A stretch of 64,000 bases of DNA from a virus. Below the pieces are notes generated by a model. It worked only from the letters and a program-made list of their open reading frames with translations. It searched no databases and had not been told where the DNA came from. The stretch's first letter is position 1; every line of letters starts with the position of its first letter. Positions 31,618 through 41,861 of the stretch are shown one piece after another. The translations under genes were made by a program, and so were the position numbers. The DNA lies in IMG/VR virus record IMGVR_UViG_3300045017_000165, positions 20,701-84,700 of that record; one strand, 5' to 3'.

Positions 31618-34560
31618 ATGGGAGACTCAGAGTTAGATTTCTTGCGCAGCGGCAGTACTGACGAGATAGAAGCCAACAGAGCAGCTTCCAGCGATGAGAG
31701 ACTCAAATCTCTAGCCTCTCCGGAACGCGTCGCCAAAGTCATGTCTGCGCTTAAATCTGATGGCTCCACCAAGACCCTGATCAAGGCTAAGAAGTCAGAC
31801 TGGATACGAGCCCTGATCCACCTCGACGGCACTAACTTCGACTTCTCTGGACGCGACTACCTAAAACAGATCTACGATACGAAGCATCCGCATAAACTTC
31901 TTGTCACGGGGCGTCAAGTTGAAAAATGTCAACCGATTTGGTCAACTATTCACAGAAGCGATGGGGGTGAATGTCGCATAGATGAACTTCGCTTAGGGGA
32001 CTCTATCTGCGCCATGAACCAAGGGGGCATACAGACGCAGGACTTAGTGTTAGCCTCGGAATCTAACGGTGTTAAAAAGTGTCTTCGCATAAAAACTCGC
32101 CTAGGCTCTACGATTGAAGCCACGTTGAACCACCCCTTTAGAAAACTACTCACATGGGAGCAAGCCTCTAAGCTAATAGTTGGTGATAAAATCGCGGCAC
32201 TTCGCAGTGTAGGGTTTTTTGGAGATAAGCAAAACGATCTGGCGATGGTAGTGGGGCTTCTGTTTGGAGATGGAAGCTTCAGTAATAGACTCATTTCGCT
32301 GGCGTGTGGAAGAGCTCCTATCCAAGAACTATTTGAAAAAGAGTATATTAGGCTAGAGGGTATAGCGCCTAAGTTTAGTTTGTCGAAAGGCTCAAAAACA
32401 CAACGAACCTATCGAGTCAGTGTCTCTACTAAAATAGCAGCGTGGTTCTACGAGCACGATCTGATAGGTATGGTTGCAAGCATCAAAAAATTACCCGCCG
32501 AAGTTTTCTCTTACAATAAAGAGTCAACTCGAAATTTGATCCGAGGACTTTGGGCAACCGATGGGCATTGTAAGAACGTAACCTCTTCTAAGATTGATTT
32601 AGTTTACTGCTCCACTAGCGAAACACTTGTTAGACAAGTGAGACTACTACTAAGAAAGTTTGGAGTTCTTACAACACTTCGTACGTATAAGCCCCAGCGA
32701 GGACAAAAAGCATTCCTTATTAGAGTAGTCACAAGAAAATCCATAGAAGCTTTTCATCGTGACATTGGACCTATTCCAGGAAAACCATTTAATATTCCCG
32801 GGTGTGAGAGCAATAGCAATTTAGATACTGTCCCTAGAGAAGTACTCAACGTATTGAAGAAAGCAAAACGTGCTGCCGGTTATGGTGGAAGATGGGGCAG
32901 CGACAACAAATGCTTTGAGCGAGATTCAGGGTTCCGGTTTAAGTCAAATTATTGCCCAACATTTGAGAAGTTAGCTGCTGCGCAGTCTTTACTCAACAAC
33001 TCTACCATACAGAAAATCTTAGACTCGGATATTATTTGGGATGAGATTGTATCAATAGAGGATTTAGGAGACCAACCAACGTGGTCTATTCAAACCCAAA
33101 CAGAAACCTACATCTCTGATTTCATAGTCCAGCACAACTCTACAATGCTAGCTAACGAGATCATCATCAACTCGGTAGTGATACCTTATTTCAAAACTCT
33201 ATATGTATCGCCGTCGCATGATCAGACAAGACAGTTCAGCAACGGAAAGTTAAAGCCGTGGATCGAAGATAGTCCTCTTATTCAAAAGTACTTCCAGAAC
33301 TCTGCCGTATCAAAGCAGGTCTTTGAGAAGAGCATGTCAAACGGATCGATTGCGTTTCTCAGGTCAGCTTTTCTAAGTGCTGACCGAACACGCGGAATAT
33401 CTAGTGATATACTATGCTTAGACGAGATTCAGGACATTTTAACGTCAAATATTCCGGTCATTACCGAGACCTTATCGCATAGTAAGTATGGGTATAAGAT
33501 TTTCGCCGGCACTCCAAAGACTCTTGAGAATCCTATCCAGCAGTACTTTGAGATGTCTAGCATGTGCGAGTGGTTGATACCTTGTTTCGCACACTCGCCG
33601 CCGCACTGGAACTACATTGATGAGAAGAGTATCGGTAAGGACGGACCAATATGCAATAAATGCGGCAAGCCCATTAATCCTGCTGAAGGTAAGTGGATAG
33701 CATTCAATGATAGTCGAGATATTCTGGGGTTTAGGATTTCACAGATCATGGTGCCATGGATCTATCAGAATCCTCTGAAGTGGAAGGAGTTCTTGTGGAA
33801 GTACGAGAACCTTTCGAGAGGTATTTTTTATAACGAGTGCTTGGGTATTTCTTTTGACTCCGCAAGCAAGCCTATTACGCGCACTGAATTAGTTGAGTGC
33901 TGCTCGTCAAAACATCCACTACGCTATCATCCAGACTCCTTCACGCATAAGATAGATCTATTTGCCGGTGTGGATTACGGCGAGGGCTCGGACGGAACAG
34001 AACGGGGTATGAAAGGAAGGATGAAGAACGCTTCGTACACAGTTCTTACGATAGGAGTCTATCTCGACCCAACACATTTTCATTACTTATTTATGAAACG
34101 GTATACTGGAGAGGAAGCTCTCCCAGCTAACTGTATCGGTGACATTATAAATATTGCACGAGCGTTTAGGGTTAAGTGCGTTGGTGCTGACTGGGGTCAT
34201 GGATGGGGAGTTAATGAGCAACTGGAAACTGCTCTCGGAAAGTCGCGCGTAATTAAGTTTCAATACGTAGGTAATCAGCGCGAGCGTAAAAAGTTTGATG
34301 AGATAGGACTTAAATACCAACTAGGTAGAACAGAAGTGATGACAGACTTTTTTACAGCAATAAAAAACCACCACATAATTTTTCCGGCATGGGAGTCAGT
34401 TAAAGATTATCTGTGTGATATCGAACATGTTTACGCCGAGTACGGAGATGGGGGAAGGTCGCTTAAGTATGACCACAAACCATCGGAGCCTGATGACGCG
34501 CTTCACTCAATGATTTATTGTAAGGAAGCCGCGGACAACTATTTCGGTAAGCACAAATAG
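31618..34560 (+). CDS. terL: Terminase large subunit (lambda GpA-like), intein-containing
   Basis: Walker A GRQVEK/ST split by intein; Walker B ILCLDEIQD; AGTP; Cys-rich segment; FYNECLG; nuclease AGVDYG and DDALHS. Confidence 0.9.
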   Translation: MGDSELDFLRSGSTDEIEANRAASSDERLKSLASPERVAKVMSALKSDGSTKTLIKAKKSDWIRALIHLDGTNFDFSGRDYLKQIYDTKHPHKLLVTGRQVEKCQPIWSTIHRSDGGECRIDELRLGDSICAMNQGGIQTQDLVLASESNGVKKCLRIKTRLGSTIEATLNHPFRKLLTWEQASKLIVGDKIAALRSVGFFGDKQNDLAMVVGLLFGDGSFSNRLISLACGRAPIQELFEKEYIRLEGIAPKFSLSKGSKTQRTYRVSVSTKIAAWFYEHDLIGMVASIKKLPAEVFSYNKESTRNLIRGLWATDGHCKNVTSSKIDLVYCSTSETLVRQVRLLLRKFGVLTTLRTYKPQRGQKAFLIRVVTRKSIEAFHRDIGPIPGKPFNIPGCESNSNLDTVPREVLNVLKKAKRAAGYGGRWGSDNKCFERDSGFRFKSNYCPTFEKLAAAQSLLNNSTIQKILDSDIIWDEIVSIEDLGDQPTWSIQTQTETYISDFIVQHNSTMLANEIIINSVVIPYFKTLYVSPSHDQTRQFSNGKLKPWIEDSPLIQKYFQNSAVSKQVFEKSMSNGSIAFLRSAFLSADRTRGISSDILCLDEIQDILTSNIPVITETLSHSKYGYKIFAGTPKTLENPIQQYFEMSSMCEWLIPCFAHSPPHWNYIDEKSIGKDGPICNKCGKPINPAEGKWIAFNDSRDILGFRISQIMVPWIYQNPLKWKEFLWKYENLSRGIFYNECLGISFDSASKPITRTELVECCSSKHPLRYHPDSFTHKIDLFAGVDYGEGSDGTERGMKGRMKNASYTVLTIGVYLDPTHFHYLFMKRYTGEEALPANCIGDIINIARAFRVKCVGADWGHGWGVNEQLETALGKSRVIKFQYVGNQRERKKFDEIGLKYQLGRTEVMTDFFTAIKNHHIIFPAWESVKDYLCDIEHVYAEYGDGGRSLKYDHKPSEPDDALHSMIYCKEAADNYFGKHK
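31927..33138 (+). mobile_element. Intein with LAGLIDADG endonuclease in terminase P-loop
   Basis: Starts CQPIWS, block B TLNHPF, VGLLFGDG and IRGLWATDG, ends VQHN/S; 404 aa. Confidence 0.92.
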
Positions 34561-34632: not shown

Positions 34633-35256
34633 CTAGCTTTTCTTATCATTGAAAGCTCCCAGTCTCCAGCGAGCCAACGGTACAAATACCTCGCCCGGAT
34701 CTGGTAAGCGGTGTGAGTAGCATTGCGCACGCATTTCGTCGTAGTCAGAGTGCATAAGATTATCTGAACACCAACCCACTTTTAATAGCTCGGCGTTCAA
34801 TCCAGCGCTTGGATAATTGTTATCTGCTGACACACTAAAGAGTAACACTGGCAATATACTCCAGCTATTTGCGAGACAGATCTTTAAGATTTCTCTTAAG
34901 ATATGATCGCTTTCATAGCGTGAGCTAGAGCGTATAGCATTATCAAATTCACCATAAGATATAAGCTCCCCTCTAGCAGCTGTGAGTAAAAGAACATTAA
35001 GACCAGCTGCTATTCTGAAGCCTCTGAGTTCTCTTGCTCTTTCAATACCAACTTGGGTTGCTTTCTTATTGTCGTAGCCTGCTTTTTCTTCGCAGTCTGC
35101 GAGTGCTTTCTTATATGCATCGAACGATTTAATAGTAAGCATATAGCTTCCTTCATTTGATCCCTTATTTTTAAAACTGCGCCACATCGCGGGATCTTTT
35201 CCAGTGGCACACCTTTGGATATTTGGACCGATATAGCGCTCGGTTCCCACACGCAT
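34633..35256 (-). CDS. Hypothetical protein
   Basis: 207 aa; true start may be internal (MLTIK, RBS GAAGGA). Confidence 0.55.
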   Translation of the reverse strand: MRVGTERYIGPNIQRCATGKDPAMWRSFKNKGSNEGSYMLTIKSFDAYKKALADCEEKAGYDNKKATQVGIERARELRGFRIAAGLNVLLLTAARGELISYGEFDNAIRSSSRYESDHILREILKICLANSWSILPVLLFSVSADNNYPSAGLNAELLKVGWCSDNLMHSDYDEMRAQCYSHRLPDPGEVFVPLARWRLGAFNDKKS

Positions 35257-35262
35257 TTGTTA

Positions 35263-35697
35263 TTACTCACTATCGGAAGACTCAGAGAGTTTAAGCTTCA
35301 TAAGTTCTTCGTCTAGTGTAGGAGCAGCTTCAAACCCTTCGATATTACCGCGCTTGTCGCAGCACTTACCTTTTGGTTTAGGTTCGTTTGGCGACAGCCC
35401 AACATATATACGAAGTGTTCGATACTTTTCCTCTGTATTGGCTTTATCTATGTTCAGATTTTTCAGTGCCTGTTCGAGCTCAGCTTTTTCAGCAATAAGA
35501 CGTTTTTCTCTCGCTTGAACTTCTTCAACGTCTATGTGAACAACGGCACCGCTTTTAGTGATAGCCATGCCAGGTTTAATGTGTTCTTCCTGCATAGCAT
35601 TTTCCATTGTGCGCATCTCTTTATACACTGGCTGAGATGCACACGCGCTTAGGATAACAAGAGACACTGACGCAACCATTAGTGTTATGTTTTTCAT
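35263..35697 (-). CDS. Predicted lipoprotein with coiled coil
   Basis: Signal peptide with lipobox LSAC; RBS AGGAGG. Confidence 0.7.
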   Translation of the reverse strand: MKNITLMVASVSLVILSACASQPVYKEMRTMENAMQEEHIKPGMAITKSGAVVHIDVEEVQAREKRLIAEKAELEQALKNLNIDKANTEEKYRTLRIYVGLSPNEPKPKGKCCDKRGNIEGFEAAPTLDEELMKLKLSESSDSE

Positions 35698-35817
35698 AAC
35701 ATCCTCCTATTTGTTTCAGTTACTTGTTTAATTAACTCGACCTGACTGTGTTTAAATCTTTAATTAAGACGTACCAACGAGCTGATGAACAGCAGTACTC
35801 GTGGGTACGTCTCATTT

Positions 35818-36070
35818 CACTACGACACGTCACTTGACATTACTTTAACCTCACGGAACTTTACCTTACTTCACATGACGGCACCACGACCATACTTTAC
35901 TCGACCATACGTTACCATGACTTTACTCTACTCAGCAGTACCATACGGTGCTTCACAGTACCCGCACGCCACTCGACTAAACGGTACCATACCTCCACAA
36001 CACAGAACGGCACAAAACCCCACCCCACATTACCAATACTGGACTGGACAGGACGACACATAACCCTTAC
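35818..36070 (-). repeat. 5-nt periodic GY-NNN array 1 (candidate guide-RNA array)
   Basis: 49 consecutive units (41 pentamers, 8 hexamers), all ending AC/GC on + strand; begins 27 nt after the Cas7-like stop. Confidence 0.85.
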
Positions 36071-36097
36071 TGAAAGCCATCCATGGCAAACAAGTAG

Positions 36098-36889
36098 TTA
36101 CGCAGATTCGATCGTGCACTTGAACTGTCCGTAGCCTGCGTTTCTCCACTGACCTAAGCCCGACACTCTTCCGTATGAGAAGAGTTTCTTTAGAGCTTCT
36201 TCAGTGAGCGGGGAATTCTCAAGCACGAGAAGTGTGAACTTGAGAGCGGCTCCGGATTCAATGCACTCGCTTTTAGCTACAGAGACGCGTGGACCTTGAG
36301 CTGTCATAGCTCTCAGTGAACGCTCACAGTACTTGATTGAGCCATCAGCACTCTTCATCACGTCTTTATCAAACGAGATGAATTGTTGCTCAATTGTTAC
36401 GTGTTGATTAATGATCGATTCCGTATAGCTTGCTGAGTTGAGGATCGTACCATTCTTTTTAGGAAGAGTACGAGCTACCGCTTCAGCAGCTGCTTTTAGG
36501 AATCCTTTAATCATGTGATCTCCGATACACGGCATTCCTGCCTTGTCGCGGAAGAACACTGTAACGCCTCGAAGTTCTTGCTCGTCGAGAGTTTCTTTTA
36601 AAGATTCGAGTTCACCTTTGATAGCAAGTTCGCGTTCTTCTGAGGTGAACTTTCTACCCACGAGAGTTTCAAGCTTATCGAGAAGCTTATCGGTTTCAAG
36701 TTTACCGCGCTCTTCGGTGATCTGTAGAGCTTCTAGGTACTTATTAATCTCAGCGTTGTAGCTACCTTTCTCTTGAATAAGCTTACGCTGCTTTTGAATG
36801 ATATGTTGTTCGTGAATCGACGGATCCGCCGGATTCGTGCCCAAAATGTCACGTGTGAATGACAAGACTACTTTATATTCTTTAAACAT
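36098..36889 (-). CDS. Stand-alone Cas7/RAMP-superfamily-like protein
   Basis: N-terminal strand YKVVLSFTRDILG; PCIGDHMIKGFLK (RAMP P.I.gs.lKG.lr-like); C-terminal Gly loop GLGQWRNAGYGQF. Confidence 0.8.
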   Translation of the reverse strand: MFKEYKVVLSFTRDILGTNPADPSIHEQHIIQKQRKLIQEKGSYNAEINKYLEALQITEERGKLETDKLLDKLETLVGRKFTSEERELAIKGELESLKETLDEQELRGVTVFFRDKAGMPCIGDHMIKGFLKAAAEAVARTLPKKNGTILNSASYTESIINQHVTIEQQFISFDKDVMKSADGSIKYCERSLRAMTAQGPRVSVAKSECIESGAALKFTLLVLENSPLTEEALKKLFSYGRVSGLGQWRNAGYGQFKCTIESA

Positions 36890-36910
36890 TTTAATACGCT
36901 TTCAAATAAA

Positions 36911-36950
36911 AGCGGTCACGCTCTACACTAGTTCATAGAGCGTGACCGCT
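36911..36950 (-). terminator. 15-bp perfect hairpin just upstream of the Cas7-like gene
   Basis: AGCGGTCACGCTCTA/TAGAGCGTGACCGCT, followed on minus by TTTATTT. Confidence 0.65.
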
Positions 36951-36961
36951 AGTTTTAGGTT

Positions 36962-37183
36962 TTACAGTACTTCTGGCTTAGATTTCTTGCCTGGCTTTTT
37001 ATTAGCTGCGGCAGGATTCTTAGCCGGTCTTCCACGCTTCTTTACGGTGCTTGGCGGCGTTGCATCGTCGTTAGCCATAAAGCGATCGTAAGCTTTCACA
37101 GCTACTGCGCCTGCTGCTGCGGAAGCGACGTAAGGAAGTGCTTTCTTAGTTACTGACCATACTGATGATAGAAAACCACTCAT
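36962..37183 (-). CDS. Small basic protein with AT-hook-like KRGRP motif
   Basis: 73 aa; RBS AGGAGG; KKRGRPAK. Confidence 0.65.
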   Translation of the reverse strand: MSGFLSSVWSVTKKALPYVASAAAGAVAVKAYDRFMANDDATPPSTVKKRGRPAKNPAAANKKPGKKSKPEVL

Positions 37184-37291
37184 GGGATCCTCCTAATGAG
37201 TTTGTTTATGTTGTTGATTGTTGGTTGTTGCTAGCAACATTGTCTCGACCAACATTCGAGACAATACTTTAAAAACTTTTTCACTAATAAT

Positions 37292-37320
37292 CTTATACCC
37301 GAAAATGGCTATTTTTATCC
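37292..37320 (-). promoter_or_regulatory. Conserved bipartite phage promoter motif
   Basis: GGATAAAA-N13-GGTATAAG. Confidence 0.65.
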
Positions 37321-37399
37321 AATAGTTAGATATTATACCCTATGGGGGTATAAAAGGTGTGCGCATAACAGATAGCTTATGCGCACACCCAGATTCAAA

Positions 37400-37639
37400 T
37401 TACTCTGAGAACATCTCAGCAAGCTTACTTTTAGCTTCAGCTTGATGTTCTGCGGGCACTTCTTTTAGATTTATGTTTACGGTGACAGTTCCATCTTCGT
37501 TAGTGATAGCTTTACCAACCATGTAGCTGTCACCACCTAGATCAAGTCTTATTGACATCTTCTTAATATAACCGCTTGAAAACGCCATAAGAGTCACGTC
37601 ACTAACAATCTCTCTTACCACTTCTCTTAACCTAATCAT
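37400..37639 (-). CDS. Hypothetical protein
   Basis: Start moved to ATG with RBS GGAGG (MIRLREVV). Confidence 0.6.
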   Translation of the reverse strand: MIRLREVVREIVSDVTLMAFSSGYIKKMSIRLDLGGDSYMVGKAITNEDGTVTVNINLKEVPAEHQAEAKSKLAEMFSE

Positions 37640-37707
37640 ATTCCGTACCTCCATAATGAAGTGGGTGCGGATTAGAAGTCTCCGCACCCGCTGACATGAT
37701 TCTGGTA

Positions 37708-38523
37708 TTACTCGGCATTTATTGAGATACCGGTAGTACCTGTTAACGAGGTCATAAGTGCAGGATCTGAACTAAAGTCTACACTCGTCACTGTAGCTCC
37801 ATAGAACCCCGTGGGGGCAGCTATGTCTACACAGGTAGATGAGTCGTAGGCTTTATAGGATCTAACAGTCCTTGACATTATGTCGTTAGTTAAAGCGACA
37901 TAATATACACCGTTATTGTTCAGCAGGACTTTGAGCATAGACCCAGCATCAGGATCATTATGACCTGAGGTTAGTCGGTTAGTCCTGACCACAGGAGTTC
38001 CGACGCACCCCAAACTAGGGTAGTAGATACGGGCACGAAGTCCGTACTCACTACCGAACTCGTTCTTATTTATGTTGACTACGAACCCACCAGTAGTATG
38101 CCAAAACGCAATGCCAACTGCGCTTTGACTAATTAGAGTTCCCATTACAACACCGAGCGAGTTCCTTACTACGAACCGAGGAGCAGCTGTACCAGCAGGA
38201 CCCTGGGCACCTTGAGCGCCCTGAGCACCTGTAGCTCCAACCGCACCCGCAGCACCTGTAGCTCCTGTGGCGCCTTGTGGTCCTTGAGGACCTTGAGCGC
38301 CATTAGATACTACAGCAGTGTTACCGCTTGGATCTGTGATACGAACGCCGTCTGACAGCTGAGTAATGGTGATTGAACCAACACTCATACTTTCACCGAC
38401 GCTAAGGTTAGTAGCCGCACCGTCCACTGGCATGACTGTTACGGATTCACTTACACAACCTGAGAGAACAGCTACTGAAGTTACAATCAAACTACCAACT
38501 GACATCATCATGAGCTTATTCAT
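37708..38523 (-). CDS. Predicted lipoprotein with collagen-like Gly-X-Y stretch
   Basis: Lipobox LSGC; about 12 G-X-Y triplets (GAQGPQGPQGATGATG...). Confidence 0.75.
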   Translation of the reverse strand: MNKLMMMSVGSLIVTSVAVLSGCVSESVTVMPVDGAATNLSVGESMSVGSITITQLSDGVRITDPSGNTAVVSNGAQGPQGPQGATGATGAAGAVGATGAQGAQGAQGPAGTAAPRFVVRNSLGVVMGTLISQSAVGIAFWHTTGGFVVNINKNEFGSEYGLRARIYYPSLGCVGTPVVRTNRLTSGHNDPDAGSMLKVLLNNNGVYYVALTNDIMSRTVRSYKAYDSSTCVDIAAPTGFYGATVTSVDFSSDPALMTSLTGTTGISINAE

Positions 38524-38568
38524 AACGTCCTACCTTTCATGATTACATTGATTGGATCGCGACGAGCT

Positions 38569-38970
38569 TCACAGTGAACGCACGACATGTGCGAACTTAC
38601 TGAGCGCATCGTTTGTTTCTTGCAGTAAGCGTCTTCTGAGAATCTTTTGTAGTAGAGGTAGCTCTGAGATATATTTTTTGTGAGCGATTAGAGTATTTGC
38701 TAATTGCTCAGTCAAATATTCTTTAGCTATCTTTACTGCTAGTACGTCGTCGACCTTAGAGGTATCAAATTCTCTATCGTCGTCTAAAAGTGCTAGCTTA
38801 AAATTCTCAGCAGTTTGCTCAGCACATCCGATTACAAGTTCGTCTGTGCTTTTTAGTTTCACTAGATCTACAATCGTCTTCGCGACAAGATCACCCAACA
38901 GTGATTTTTCTGACATTCTTTTTCGTTGGAGTGTCTGGCTTGGCGACGCGTGGTTTTTTACGTTCGACAT
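38569..38970 (-). CDS. Hypothetical protein
   Basis: 133 aa; RBS AGGAGG. Confidence 0.55.
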   Translation of the reverse strand: MSNVKNHASPSQTLQRKRMSEKSLLGDLVAKTIVDLVKLKSTDELVIGCAEQTAENFKLALLDDDREFDTSKVDDVLAVKIAKEYLTEQLANTLIAHKKYISELPLLQKILRRRLLQETNDALSKFAHVVRSL

Positions 38971-39406
38971 TTTGCAGTCCTCCTTTTTCTTCGATTGATT
39001 TGATGTAGTGTCTTACGGCTACGATTACCCCGCCCGCTACTTGCTTCATTTTGGAAATGATAAGTAGTTTGGCAAAGTGCGCAGCCTTGTCAGCACCTAC
39101 ATCGTCTTTGTTAATGATCGATCCCATCACGAAGAACATCGCCCCGTACTTGAGCTTACGGAGCGTTTCGATATGAAGACCATTAGGGCGGTCATCTATC
39201 TGTGACGGGAACATCTTTACGAAAACAGCCGCGAATTTCTCGGTAGTTGCCGATAGGGTCTCGAGCGTGTTCACGACTGAGTTCATTAGCCCTTCATTAC
39301 TTTCATTGTCAGCCAGTTTAGCGGCGGACTCTGAAAAGGCTTCAAGAGACTCTGCGAATACGTGCATTGAGTCTAGTTCGTCTTTGCTTAGTTTTAATGT
39401 TTTCAT
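38891..39406 (-). CDS. Hypothetical protein
   Basis: 171 aa; RBS GAGGTG. Confidence 0.6.
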   Translation of the reverse strand: MKTLKLSKDELDSMHVFAESLEAFSESAAKLADNESNEGLMNSVVNTLETLSATTEKFAAVFVKMFPSQIDDRPNGLHIETLRKLKYGAMFFVMGSIINKDDVGADKAAHFAKLLIISKMKQVAGGVIVAVRHYIKSIEEKGGLQNVERKKPRVAKPDTPTKKNVRKITVG

Positions 39407-39559
39407 AGGTCACCTCTTTGGTTAATAGTTAAAGTTTTAGTTTGGATACACGACCGCCCAACGCTAGCACCGTTTAGATGCAGCGTTAGACGGGGTCTAA
39501 GCTTTATGTAAAGGGAGGAAAAAATAGCTTAAGGGAATAAGTATTTTTTACCTATTAAA

Positions 39560-39588
39560 CATATACCCTTAAAAGGGCTGTTTTTGCC
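39560..39588 (-). promoter_or_regulatory. Conserved bipartite phage promoter motif
   Basis: GGCAAAAA-N13-GGTATATG, followed by TTTAATAGGT as at 16432. Confidence 0.72.
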
Positions 39589-39648
39589 TGTATTTTTGAT
39601 GGGTTAGTGGAGGTCTAAAAAGGGTGTTTTTTAGGTATTCAGATGGAC

Positions 39649-39849
39649 TTATTTGGGGGTTGATTTAAAGCCCTTGAGGAAGCCTGAAACGTTATAGTTC
39701 TTTGGAGCGTTTATGGCATCTATATCGGCATAGCTAAGCCCTAGATTTTTGAGTCTTCCCCACTCTCTTGTGGAGCGAAGCTTTTTTGTAAGAGCGGGGT
39801 TTTTAGCGAATATTGATCTTAGAAGCTGGTATGCACCTGGTTTAGACAT
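39649..39849 (-). CDS. Small basic hypothetical protein
   Basis: 66 aa; TAAAAT 7 nt before ATG. Confidence 0.5.
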   Translation of the reverse strand: MSKPGAYQLLRSIFAKNPALTKKLRSTREWGRLKNLGLSYADIDAINAPKNYNVSGFLKGFKSTPK

Positions 39850-39909
39850 GAAGGTAATTTTATCGCAATACCTAAAAAAGAGCCAGAGGGGAGCCGGCTC
39901 TTTCGGTTA

Positions 39910-40203
39910 TTAGTTCATCCAATTCTTACTGGGTATGACGAATGTTTTAACAGCATTATCTGAATCATCGGGGGATGATTGTTCTACTGCTGTACTCGCC
40001 TTGGCTGTCAAAGATTTGAACGTAGTAACGATCTTACTGAAATCTTTACTTAGTTTTTTAAAATCCCTGAGAGTTTTATTACTCAGTACTAACTGGCGCT
40101 TCATTTCAATCGCCTGACTACGAAGTTTTAAAATCTGAAGCATCAGATAGATGCATGTCAGTCCTAAAACAACTAATGAGACGCTGAAAACTTTGTTATA
40201 CAT
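39910..40203 (-). CDS. Membrane-anchored coiled-coil protein
   Basis: ATG with RBS GGAAGG (MYNKVFSV...); N-terminal TM helix. Confidence 0.6.
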   Translation of the reverse strand: MYNKVFSVSLVVLGLTCIYLMLQILKLRSQAIEMKRQLVLSNKTLRDFKKLSKDFSKIVTTFKSLTAKASTAVEQSSPDDSDNAVKTFVIPSKNWMN

Positions 40204-40224
40204 ACGATTCCTTCCCAATAACAA

Positions 40225-40758
40225 GTAACGTTACCGTACCTTACCTTACGAAACCCCAACGCAACGCTACTGAACTCCACATAACTATACCACCACACAA
40301 CATAATCACCACTACCGCGCAACACATTACATTACCCCGCCAAGACAGTGCATTACTTCACCGTACTAAAGCTAAGCCCTACCGCACAGTACCCTACCCG
40401 AACCGGTTTCTACCGGAACACAACACTACTAAACTTAACTACACCATACCGTCACGTTACATGACGAAACTGCACTGACGCAGTACATTGCTTTACCGAG
40501 ACTTTACTACACTCAACGACACTTCACGCTACCCAACCGTGACTTTACTGCACCCTACTACACATCACGATACCTCACTGTGGCTTTACCCCACGACACA
40601 CCACCCAATCAAACATCACCATACCGCACGGGACTCTACCGAGACGCTGCCATGCTGGACGTTACTTTGCCATAGCAATACTGCACAACACGTTACCCGA
40701 CCTTACCATAGCATCACCTTACAACACGAGACCTTGCGTCACTGTAGCATCGCAGTAC
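40225..40758 (-). repeat. 5-nt periodic GY-NNN array 2 (candidate guide-RNA array)
   Basis: About 100 units, nearly all ending AC/GC on + strand, 16 hexamers; fills the whole intergenic space. Confidence 0.85.
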
Positions 40759-41009
40759 TAATGTGCAGTATCGTTACGGACTTCGTCTGAACTAAACGAT
40801 GTCGCCGCAACGTAATTATTTTTTTCCTGTGGTGGATAAACAAGAAAAACCGTCCTGCCGTTTAGTACGACTGGAAGCATAGTGTGTATTCCTGTCGTAG
40901 CTACTTTGGAAGATTCTTCCAAAATATCCGCAAGAGCTCTTAGCTGCTCTGGCGAAGTTTCAAATAATTGCCCGTGTACAACTTGTCCCGTAGTTTTAAA
41001 TTTTTCCAC
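40758..41009 (-). CDS. Hypothetical protein directly upstream of array 2
   Basis: 83 aa; GTG start with RBS GGGGAG. Confidence 0.55.
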   Translation of the reverse strand: MEKFKTTGQVVHGQLFETSPEQLRALADILEESSKVATTGIHTMLPVVLNGRTVFLVYPPQEKNNYVAATSFSSDEVRNDTAH

Positions 41010-41113
41010 GACAAATCTCCCCTAAATAAAAAAGGGAGCCGTCTAAAAGATAGACGACTCCCAAGTTGGTTTTCACTACTTTAAACTTATACCATTTAAA
41101 TTAATGGTTTAGT

Positions 41114-41434
41114 TCACACTGTCTGATCAATCAGAGATGCCACCAGATATCTATATTCGGTCTTTAATGCCTCGGAATACGGTGACGCTAAAATCTTTAC
41201 TCTGACTAAAACTAGCTCACTAAGCCTGAGTCCTAATGGAGCTAAGAATTGCACTTTAGCGTTAGTTGTTCCTGATGATTCCACTCCTATTATGAGCGGG
41301 TATTGAAATAGGACTGGCTCGTCTAAATCAACGTTTTCTATCGCGCAATGCATGAACGCCATGATGGTTTGCCCATCATCTAGCTGTGCGATGACGACTG
41401 GATTATTTTTCAATGCGTCTACTATACTAGTCAT
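41114..41434 (-). CDS. Hypothetical protein (tandem paralog B)
   Basis: VVIAQLDDGQTIMAFMHCAIENVDLDEPVLFQYP. Confidence 0.65.
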   Translation of the reverse strand: MTSIVDALKNNPVVIAQLDDGQTIMAFMHCAIENVDLDEPVLFQYPLIIGVESSGTTNAKVQFLAPLGLRLSELVLVRVKILASPYSEALKTEYRYLVASLIDQTV

Positions 41435-41861
41435 TTCGATCCCCCTTATTTAGTTTAGTTTTGTTCCTTAGGTTGGCTTCGTTTTCTTCGATTTGTTTTA
41501 GGTAGTTGTACACTGCAGATCTGTAGGCTTCTTTTGCGCACTGCGAGCTAGGTGAGTCCAGCCCCGCAACTTTCCTGAGCGAGAACTCACTTAAGCAGCG
41601 CCCGAAAGGACGGTCTAACACCGAGTCTAATTCTGCGTCATCAGAGTCGGGTATTTCGTAATTTAAGAACGGTGCGGTTCTAACGGACTCTTCAGCTGAT
41701 ATAACTTCTATAGGATATTGAAATAAGATAGCATCGTTTAGATCAACGTTTTCCATCTCTCCGTGCATAAACGCCATAAAGCTTTTCCCGTTGTCCAGAT
41801 GAGCAATCACGACGTGGAGTTGTTTCAGTATATCTTTTTGATCGGGTTGTTTTTTATTCAT
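41427..41861 (-). CDS. Hypothetical protein (tandem paralog A)
   Basis: VVIAHLDNGKSFMAFMHGEMENVDLNDAILFQYP. Confidence 0.65.
   Translation of the reverse strand: MNKKQPDQKDILKQLHVVIAHLDNGKSFMAFMHGEMENVDLNDAILFQYPIEVISAEESVRTAPFLNYEIPDSDDAELDSVLDRPFGRCLSEFSLRKVAGLDSPSSQCAKEAYRSAVYNYLKQIEENEANLRNKTKLNKGDRND

What the first reader, a model, noticed from the sequence alone, without database searches (positions are those of the whole stretch)
35767..36889. Stand-alone Cas7/RAMP-like gene followed by a 5-nt periodic non-coding array: candidate RNA-guided system without CRISPR repeats
Seen: the 263-aa minus-strand protein has RAMP hallmarks (P.I...IKG.LK helix; C-terminal GLGQWRNAGYGQF Gly loop). 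27 nt after its stop, on the same strand, a 253-nt array begins, in which GT (rarely GC) recurs every 5 nt with free positions between (gttat gtgtc gtcct gtcca gtcca gtattg gtaat gtggg...). The window has no cas1/2/3/5/6/10 and no repeat-spacer array. Established: Cas7 subunits polymerise along crRNA with a fixed nucleotide step. Inference: each protomer binds one 5-nt unit through the invariant GY while the variable bases read a non-contiguous nucleic-acid target, e.g. competing phages or host genes, probably by binding/repression since no nuclease partner is evident. From memory and unverified, this resembles the recently reported phage VIPR systems (Cas7-like Vipr protein plus GGY/NN RNAs). 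Here the base before GY is unbiased in array 1 pentamers (13 A, 10 C, 10 T, 8 G on the minus strand), so the scaffold appears to be only GY, which may be a distinct code variant.
Basis: partly seen in the sequence, partly recalled or inferred. Interest (0 to 1): 0.96.

Follow-up and report, generated by a model that had tools for sequence, protein, structure and literature searches.

The report
Phage VIPR system with GY-only repeats
A lake-water phage carries a Cas7-like (Vipr-family) gene followed by long arrays of 5-nt units with a fixed GY. It is a divergent member of the VIPR RNA-guided silencing systems described in 2026, so it is real and interesting but not a new kind of system.

Summary
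Array 1 (36065-35822, minus strand) has 48 xGY/NN units. A second array (40759-40228) has about 100 units. Their chain scores are 39 and 29.5, against at most 6.5 in Markov-1 nulls.

VIPR is already published (bioRxiv 10.64898/2026.04.26.720920 and .720927).

- The G-loop residue covaries with repeat base 1. D/E goes with G (86-91%), Q with any base, and G with A in one locus.
- The arrays are cut by +1 slips into 5-8-unit segments that restart with GGY.
- N4N5 composition fits codon positions 1-2, as in SUSP1. Base x looks unread.

No natural target and no RNA data were found. First-stage notes of this scan on the same genome had already flagged the second array and the 6-nt punctuation. Verdict: new member of a known kind.

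The parts
36098..36889 (-). vipr-like gene, 263 aa. It has a RAMP fold: RRM core, a long alpha-helical bundle insertion (about residues 23-107), helix-1 with H125/M126, a beta-hairpin thumb (about 187-210) and the G-loop GLGQWRNAGYGQF (244-256).
35822..36065 (-). vrRNA array 1: 48 units xGY/NN in seven in-phase segments of 5-9 units, separated by 6-nt steps. Most segments restart with GGT.
35762..35817 (-). Stem-loop closing array 1 (20-nt arms, 85% complementary). It is a candidate 3' tail or terminator of the vipr-array transcript.
   Evidence: z -3.1; I2. Its function is inferred.
36911..36950 (-). Strong intrinsic-terminator-like hairpin with a T-run just upstream of vipr. It marks the 5' boundary of the module.
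   Evidence: I3
40228..40759 (-). vrRNA array 2: about 100 units of the same grammar, 3.3 kb upstream of vipr on the same strand. It has recurrent junction motifs (AGTAAAGTCNY|GGT and TGCTAY|RG) and a 41-nt duplicated segment pair.
36962..37183 (-). 73-aa ORF with a sub-threshold AT-hook motif, separated from vipr by the terminator. It is a weak candidate DNA-binding accessory and is not conserved in relatives.
40758..41009 (-). 83-aa ORF whose stop codon abuts array 2. It has no family match and no homologue in related loci, so its relation to the system is unknown.

Best explanation
This is a phage-encoded VIPR (Viral Interference Programmable Repeat) system of a divergent clade.

Shown here:
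- The 263-aa protein is a Vipr-family RAMP.
- Conserved gene-plus-array modules occur in all close relatives, with GY fixed and the other three bases free.

Inferred by analogy to SUSP1 VIPR:
- The gene and array 1 are co-transcribed, and array 2 is transcribed separately.
- The RNA is used as short guides, one per in-phase segment of 5-9 units that starts with GGY and ends with one extra base.
- One Vipr protomer binds each 5-nt unit. It holds G2 (W248 stacking) and Y3 (R249, M126 pocket) and presents N4N5.
- N4N5 pairs with double-stranded DNA, skipping one target base per unit. In this way it silences genes of competing phages or satellites.

Inferred from covariation:
- Base 1 of internal units is no longer read by the protein, because the SUSP1 G1 contacts are changed. 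D177 is replaced by Q247, and H17 has no counterpart.
- Base 1 is probably not read against the target either.
For: Fold.

Homology to SUSP1-type Vipr:
- Searches match the G-loop only.
- Searches give probability 83-86%.
- One search gives 94.6%, E 7.3e-8, residues 2-263 against 1-192.

Arrays.

Conservation of the module:
- 36 of 80 IMG/VR loci pass a strict GY detector, and almost all arrays lie within 1.5 kb of the gene.
- 10 of the 10 closest metagenome relatives have same-strand downstream arrays, up to 364 units.
- No neighbouring gene is conserved.

G-loop residue against the base before GY:
- D/E loci: G in 86-91% of 1106 units.
- Q loci: G in 37% of 1368 units.
- One G-loop Gly locus (L143): AGC/NN in 55 of 55 units.

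Variation falls only at free positions:
- The paralogous 41-nt segments differ at 10 positions, none of them in GY.
- The 3 SNPs in another lake sample are all at x or N4.

Composition:
- N4N5 best fits codon positions 1-2, sense. The gain is +98.8 bits over background in this family and +23.8 bits in the SUSP1-type control.
- x carries no mutual information with N5.
- Stop triplets are not depleted: 48 against 59 expected.

Published mechanism and variants.
Against: - No natural target was found under any skip rule.
- No RNA data exist for this phage, so transcription, processing sites and protein binding are untested.
- Homology to characterised Vipr rests on profile-profile alignment at about 20% identity. 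A direct structural comparison with the SUSP1 Vipr structure was not possible.
- No vap accessory gene is recognisable.
- The segments (5-9 units) are shorter than the 9-16 repeats of characterised vrRNAs.
- The G-loop covariation compares a few clades, so it amounts to few independent events.
Confidence: 0.82

Rival explanations
1. It is a VIPR relative with a different reading rule. All three free bases (N4, N5 and the next x) pair with the target, or the target is RNA rather than DNA. The short segments would then still give 15-27 nt of specificity.
For: Base x is as variable as N5 between the paralogous segments, 4 of 8 each. Segments have only 5-9 units. No target was found under the 2-base rule.
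Against: x shows no mutual information with N5. N4N5x triplets are not depleted of stop codons, whereas N4N5 alone looks like codon positions 1-2. The exact NNx hits found had 0 of 8 matches at x, although those hits are at chance level. No target was found under the NNN, NNNx or other rules in 1.9 Mb of local sequence.
Confidence: 0.1
2. The arrays are not guides. They could be a protein-binding scaffold or decoy RNA or DNA, for example one that sequesters a competitor's Vipr. They could also be a structural or regulatory repeat that co-evolves with the RAMP protein.
For: No target was found. The arrays are very long, up to at least 364 units in L180. [quoted passage not shown]
Against: The free positions are hypervariable between relatives and between paralogous segments. 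They carry a coding-sequence-like composition identical in kind to that of experimentally validated SUSP1-type guides. A decoy would need only the fixed bases.
Confidence: 0.05
3. It is a degenerate remnant of a type III or type IV CRISPR-Cas locus captured by a phage, and the periodic sequence is unrelated.
For: The best solved-structure matches are Csm3, Cmr4 and type VII Cas7. PADLOC gives Cas7_IIId at E 2e-4.
Against: There is no CRISPR repeat-spacer array, no Cas1 and no other RAMP in the 84.7-kb record. The gene-plus-pentamer-array pairing is conserved in hundreds of viral contigs.
Confidence: 0.02

Closest known systems
Type II VIPR of Escherichia phage SUSP1 (Vipr ALH47069, PDB 36pp; bioRxiv 10.64898/2026.04.26.720920 and .720927)
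   Same: Both are phage-encoded, stand-alone RAMP genes with a helical bundle, a thumb and a G-loop of the form G-x-G-x-W-R. Both have same-strand arrays of 5-nt units with fixed G2 and Y3 and free N4N5. In both, N4N5 composition matches codon positions 1-2. Neither has cas genes or a CRISPR array.
   Different: - The protein is 263 aa against 195 aa, with a much longer bundle insertion, and about 20% identical.
- The G1 contacts are changed: D177 to Q247, and H17 is absent.
- Base 1 is free except at segment starts.
- +1 slips occur every 5-8 units (13-17% of steps, against 1.4% in SUSP1-type arrays).
- There is no per-guide pseudoknot tail.
- There is no conserved vap gene.
- The arrays are far longer, about 150 units in total here.
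VIPR variants with non-canonical repeats (YNNNG, NNNGG and NNNNG repeats and 'staggered arrays' in the VIPR paper; WGT/NN and TGH/NN clusters in bioRxiv 10.64898/2026.10.21.760802)
   Same: The xGY/NN unit equals YNNNG. The phase-shifted contiguous segments fit the description of staggered arrays whose vrRNA ends abut.
   Different: I could not see the figures or tables, so I cannot say whether this clade or phage is among the published loci, or which of types I-VII it belongs to. Staggered arrays were not among the architectures the paper says it confirmed by sRNA-seq.
Cas7 backbone subunits of class 1 CRISPR effectors (Csm3, Cmr4, type VII Cas7)
   Different: CRISPR Cas7 uses a 6-nt step with one flipped base and a contiguous spacer. 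It needs a repeat-derived handle, Cas5, Cas6 or Cas10 partners and a CRISPR array. None of these is present here.

Membership tests
VIPR system | Vipr protein: minimal RAMP with RRM core, thumb and glycine-rich loop | tested here: met
VIPR system | Sequence homology to described Vipr proteins (SUSP1 / X1U2U4 clade) | tested here: met
   hhalign of a 49-sequence profile against the SUSP1-type profile gives probability 94.6%, E 7.3e-8, collinear over the full length. Narrower profiles give 83-86%. HMM against PDB chain 36pp_D gives only E 0.38, at the G-loop. No direct structural superposition was available.
VIPR system | Adjacent tandem pentanucleotide repeats (GGY/NN or a related consensus such as YNNNG), at least 4 units, fixed bases conserved and NN hypervariable | tested here: met
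   There are 48 plus about 100 units. Chain scores are 39 and 29.5, against a null maximum of 6.5. Differences between paralogous segments and between samples fall only at free positions. The same arrays occur in relatives.
VIPR system | No CRISPR array and no other cas genes; viral genome context | tested here: met
   The source is an IMG/VR virus record with terminase and PolA genes. No Cas1 and no second RAMP were found, and there is no repeat-spacer array near the locus. The record is only about 54% complete.
VIPR system | vipr-accessory (vap) gene next to vipr (typical, not universal) | tested here: inconclusive
   No neighbouring gene is conserved in 160 related loci. The 73-aa AT-hook-like ORF is sub-threshold and not conserved.
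VIPR system | vrRNAs are expressed and co-purify with Vipr | not testable with these tools
   No RNA run holds this sequence.
VIPR system | DNA targets matched by NN with a 1-nt skip | tested here: inconclusive
   N4N5 composition fits codon positions 1-2, as in the SUSP1-type control. No above-chance target was found in the phage's own genome, in 1.9 Mb of related loci, or in four IMG/VR scans.
CRISPR-Cas class 1 (type III/IV/VII) | CRISPR repeat-spacer array plus Cas5, Cas6, Cas10 or other effector and adaptation genes | tested here: not met

The most novel reading that the evidence does not exclude
This clade may use a distinct guide architecture. The guides would be very short, about one helical turn (5-7 units, 26-36 nt). 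They would be defined by a +1 phase slip and a GGY 'start' unit, which could nucleate or register Vipr assembly or mark a Y|GGY processing site. Internal units would have lost protein recognition of base 1 through the D-to-Q G-loop change. If base 1 turns out to be read against the target, this would be a 3-of-5 code rather than the published 2-of-5 code.
Probability: 0.2. Interest if true: 0.6.

Novelty: new member of a known kind. Interest (0 to 1): 0.38.

Why it matters
VIPR systems were first described in 2026, and only the SUSP1 and P. fulva type has been characterised in depth. This locus and its several hundred relatives give a well-delimited example of the GY-only, staggered-array form.

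Two testable leads come out of it. One is a G-loop position (D/E, Q or G) that predicts repeat base 1. The other is a segment grammar, with a GGY start and a +1 slip every 5-8 units, that may define guide length.

These leads could help to annotate VIPR arrays, predict repeat codes from protein sequence, and design shorter programmable guides. They do not open a new class of system.

Tried and rejected
- Target search, local. Seven skip rules (NN, NNx, NNxx, NNxxx, NNN, NNNx, NNNxx) were tried for 21 segments against the 84.7-kb record plus 80 related loci. Only the trivial self-match of the arrays at period 5 exceeded shuffled guides.
- Target search, IMG/VR, exact NNx patterns:
  - The 18-base pattern gave 2 hits in one gene family, with 0 of 8 matches at x.
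  - Three 16-base patterns gave 12-13 hits each.
  - These numbers are at chance level, and other guides do not converge on the hit loci: 11 extra guide-locus pairs against 11-27 in shuffles.
  - In-frame hits are explained by the codon-like composition of the patterns.
- Genome-contig scan for homologues. 62 pattern matches, none confirmed.
- The genome search 'relatives' is not available for virus records.
- Sequencing runs. No RNA holder is listed. The DNA contigs from other lake samples are low-depth fragments.
- Rfam. No family, including hammerhead ribozymes, matches in 35000-41500.
- Library matches for the protein. Pfam RAMPs is sub-threshold at E 0.03. PHROGs gives none. megablast to phages gives none.
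- The + strand ORFs over the arrays (35785-36063 and 40488-40790) are rejected as genes. A period of 5 is incompatible with coding, and they lie antisense to a conserved non-coding array.
- Global Fourier analysis at period 5 fails because of the +1 slips. Chain detection was used instead.

Full report
**Observation**

The minus-strand ORF 36098-36889 encodes 263 aa. Downstream on the same strand, GT (rarely GC) recurs every 5 nt from 36064 to 35822. There are 48 units with six 6-nt steps. A chain detector scores this array at 39.

The detector also finds a second array region on the same strand at 40758-40228. It holds about 100 units, with chain scores of 29.5, 23, 14 and 12. Nothing else in the window or in the whole 84.7-kb record scores comparably. 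Shuffled or Markov-1 sequences of the same size reach at most 7. A plain Fourier test fails only because the +1 steps break the phase.

**Context**

The record is an IMG/VR virus contig, about 54% complete, from lake water metagenomes. It carries a terminase and a family A DNA polymerase and has no close relative among sequenced phages. A strong terminator hairpin (36950-36911) precedes vipr, and a stem-loop (35817-35762) closes array 1. Vipr plus array 1 therefore looks like one transcription unit. Array 2 fills the gap between two small unrelated ORFs.

**The protein**

- Pfam gives only a sub-threshold RAMP hit on the C-terminal G-loop.
- PADLOC gives Cas7_IIId at E 2e-4.
- The best viral model in BFVD is a phage 'RAMP superfamily protein'.
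- The family is large. There are at least 274 clusters at 90% identity, more than 560 IMG/VR stretches and more than 540 metagenome stretches. None was found in the GTDB species genomes.

**Relation to VIPR**

VIPR systems (a Vipr RAMP plus GGY/NN vrRNAs) were reported in 2026, with structures.

The PDB sequence copy holds the SUSP1 Vipr chain (36pp_D), which my profile hits weakly at the G-loop. I located the SUSP1 vipr gene and built a SUSP1-type profile. Profile-profile alignment gives probability 83-86% with a narrow query profile. With a 49-sequence profile of the wider clade it gives 94.6%, E 7.3e-8, collinear from residue 2 to 263 against residues 1-192.

The extra length of the window protein is a longer helical bundle. 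That is the same position as the SUSP1 bundle domain that contacts the skipped target base.

**Conserved module**

- Of 80 IMG/VR loci with homologues, 36 pass a strict GY-chain detector. Essentially all of their arrays lie within 1.5 kb of the gene. Loci that fail the detector have short arrays or other period-5 motifs.
- All 10 closest metagenome relatives (45-64% identity) have same-strand arrays starting within 4-800 nt of the stop codon. One array has at least 364 units.
- None of 12 neighbouring window proteins has a homologue in any of the 160 loci.

The conserved unit is the gene plus its array.

**The 'GY-only' code**

The VIPR paper's methods already list alternative NNNGG, YNNNG and NNNNG repeats and 'staggered arrays'. 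A later preprint lists WGT/NN-type motifs next to Vipr-like folds. The xGY/NN unit is YNNNG, so this is not a new variant.

In SUSP1, G1 is read by H17 and D177, G2 by R138 and W178, and Y3 by R179, E71 and M72. The alignments put W248, R249 and M126 at the G2 and Y3 contacts. They put Q247, which is invariant in the clade, at D177. H17 falls in a 5-residue deletion or aligns with T18.

Across loci, the G-loop residue tracks the base before GY:
- D or E: G in 86-91% of 1106 units (78 loci).
- Q: G in 37% of 1368 units (72 loci).
- Gly (one locus, L143): AGC/NN in 55 of 55 units.

This covariation spans few independent clades, so it is a lead rather than a proof.

**Segment grammar**

6-nt steps make up 13% of steps in the window and 17% in close relatives, against 1.4% in SUSP1-type arrays. 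Slip-to-slip distances peak at 26, 31 and 36 nt.

The unit after a slip starts with G in 82% of cases in relatives, against 21% elsewhere. In the window the figures are 14 of 19 against 29 of 122 (p 3.7e-5). Each relative has its own junction consensus: AGTAAAGTCNY|GGT and TGCTAY|RG here, and GTGAA|GGT in L180.

The arrays therefore read as strings of short segments of the form GGYNN, then 4-6 xGYNN units, then one extra base. This fits the published description of staggered arrays.

**Which bases are read**

- Two paralogous 41-nt segments differ at 10 positions: 4 at x, 2 at N4, 4 at N5 and none in GY.
- Three SNPs in another lake sample fall at x, x and N4. These come from low-depth contigs.
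- N4N5 dinucleotides fit codon positions 1-2 in the sense orientation far better than five other phase and strand models. The gain is +98.8 bits over background and 61.7 bits over the runner-up. The validated SUSP1-type arrays show the same preference at +23.8 bits.
- x is compositionally flat and shares no information with N5. N4N5x triplets are not depleted of stop codons, 48 against 59 expected.

The published rule of 2 read bases plus a 1-nt skip is thus the most likely rule here, with x unread. This evidence is indirect.

**Targets and expression**

No target was found in the phage's own record or in related loci under seven rules. Four exact NNx scans of IMG/VR returned hit numbers at chance level, with no convergence of other guides. 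No RNA run holds the sequence. Function as a silencer of competing elements therefore rests on analogy with SUSP1 and P. fulva VIPR.

**Verdict**

This is a genuine, well-delimited VIPR locus of a divergent, uncharacterised clade, so it is a new member of a known kind. Confidence is about 0.8 that it is and works like a VIPR system. Confidence is lower for the details of guide length and the role of base 1. Interest is moderate.

Noticed in passing
L143:1943-2464 (+), gene G-loop at about L143:3014: A SUSP1-type Vipr whose G-loop reads GIGGFRPEKGG (Gly where SUSP1 has D177). It sits next to five arrays of AGC/NN units. A precedes GY in 55 of 55 units, and Y is almost always C. This is a third pairing of G-loop residue with repeat base 1.
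   Followed up: partly
L009:6590-6890 (+), and about 40 similar gut-phage loci among L008-L078: Homologues at about 31% identity (G-loop GIGQWRNSGKGRF) fail the GY detector. Their downstream intergenic region still shows a period-5 pattern with G plus C/G/A, which may be an NNNNG-like code.
   Followed up: no
L180:1769-3633 (+) and L026:6631-10524 (+): The arrays are extremely long. L180 has 364 units that run off the contig end, with a GTGAA|GGT junction every 31-56 nt. In L026 the arrays extend over about 4 kb.
   Followed up: partly
window 31618-34560 (+): This 980-aa terminase-like ORF appears to carry a large insertion, with homing-endonuclease or intein-like blocks that end in ...VQHNS. 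I read this from the translation only.
   Followed up: no
window 37708-38523 (-): This 271-aa ORF has a lipoprotein-type signal and a collagen-like G-x-x repeat (GAQGPQGPQGATGATGAAG...). It matches PHROG tail-fibre families through the repeat only. It lies between the two arrays.
   Followed up: partly
window 41114-41434 and 41427-41861 (-): Two adjacent ORFs of 106 and 144 aa share an N-terminal block (V[VI]IA.LD.G...MAFMH...ENVDL....LFQYP). They look like tandem paralogues of unknown function, just upstream of the 83-aa ORF and array 2.
   Followed up: no
window 36001, 36004, 36019: A contig from another lake sample (run X5) differs from array 1 at three positions, all in free bases (N4, x, x). 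Depth is about 2, so this could be error or a strain variant.
   Followed up: partly
window 36889-36910: vipr has no Shine-Dalgarno-like sequence before its ATG, whereas neighbouring genes have AGGAGG. It starts 21 nt after the upstream terminator's stem (stem end 36911, ATG at 36889), so its promoter is unclear. It may be transcribed by read-through from the unit that starts near 37300.
   Followed up: no
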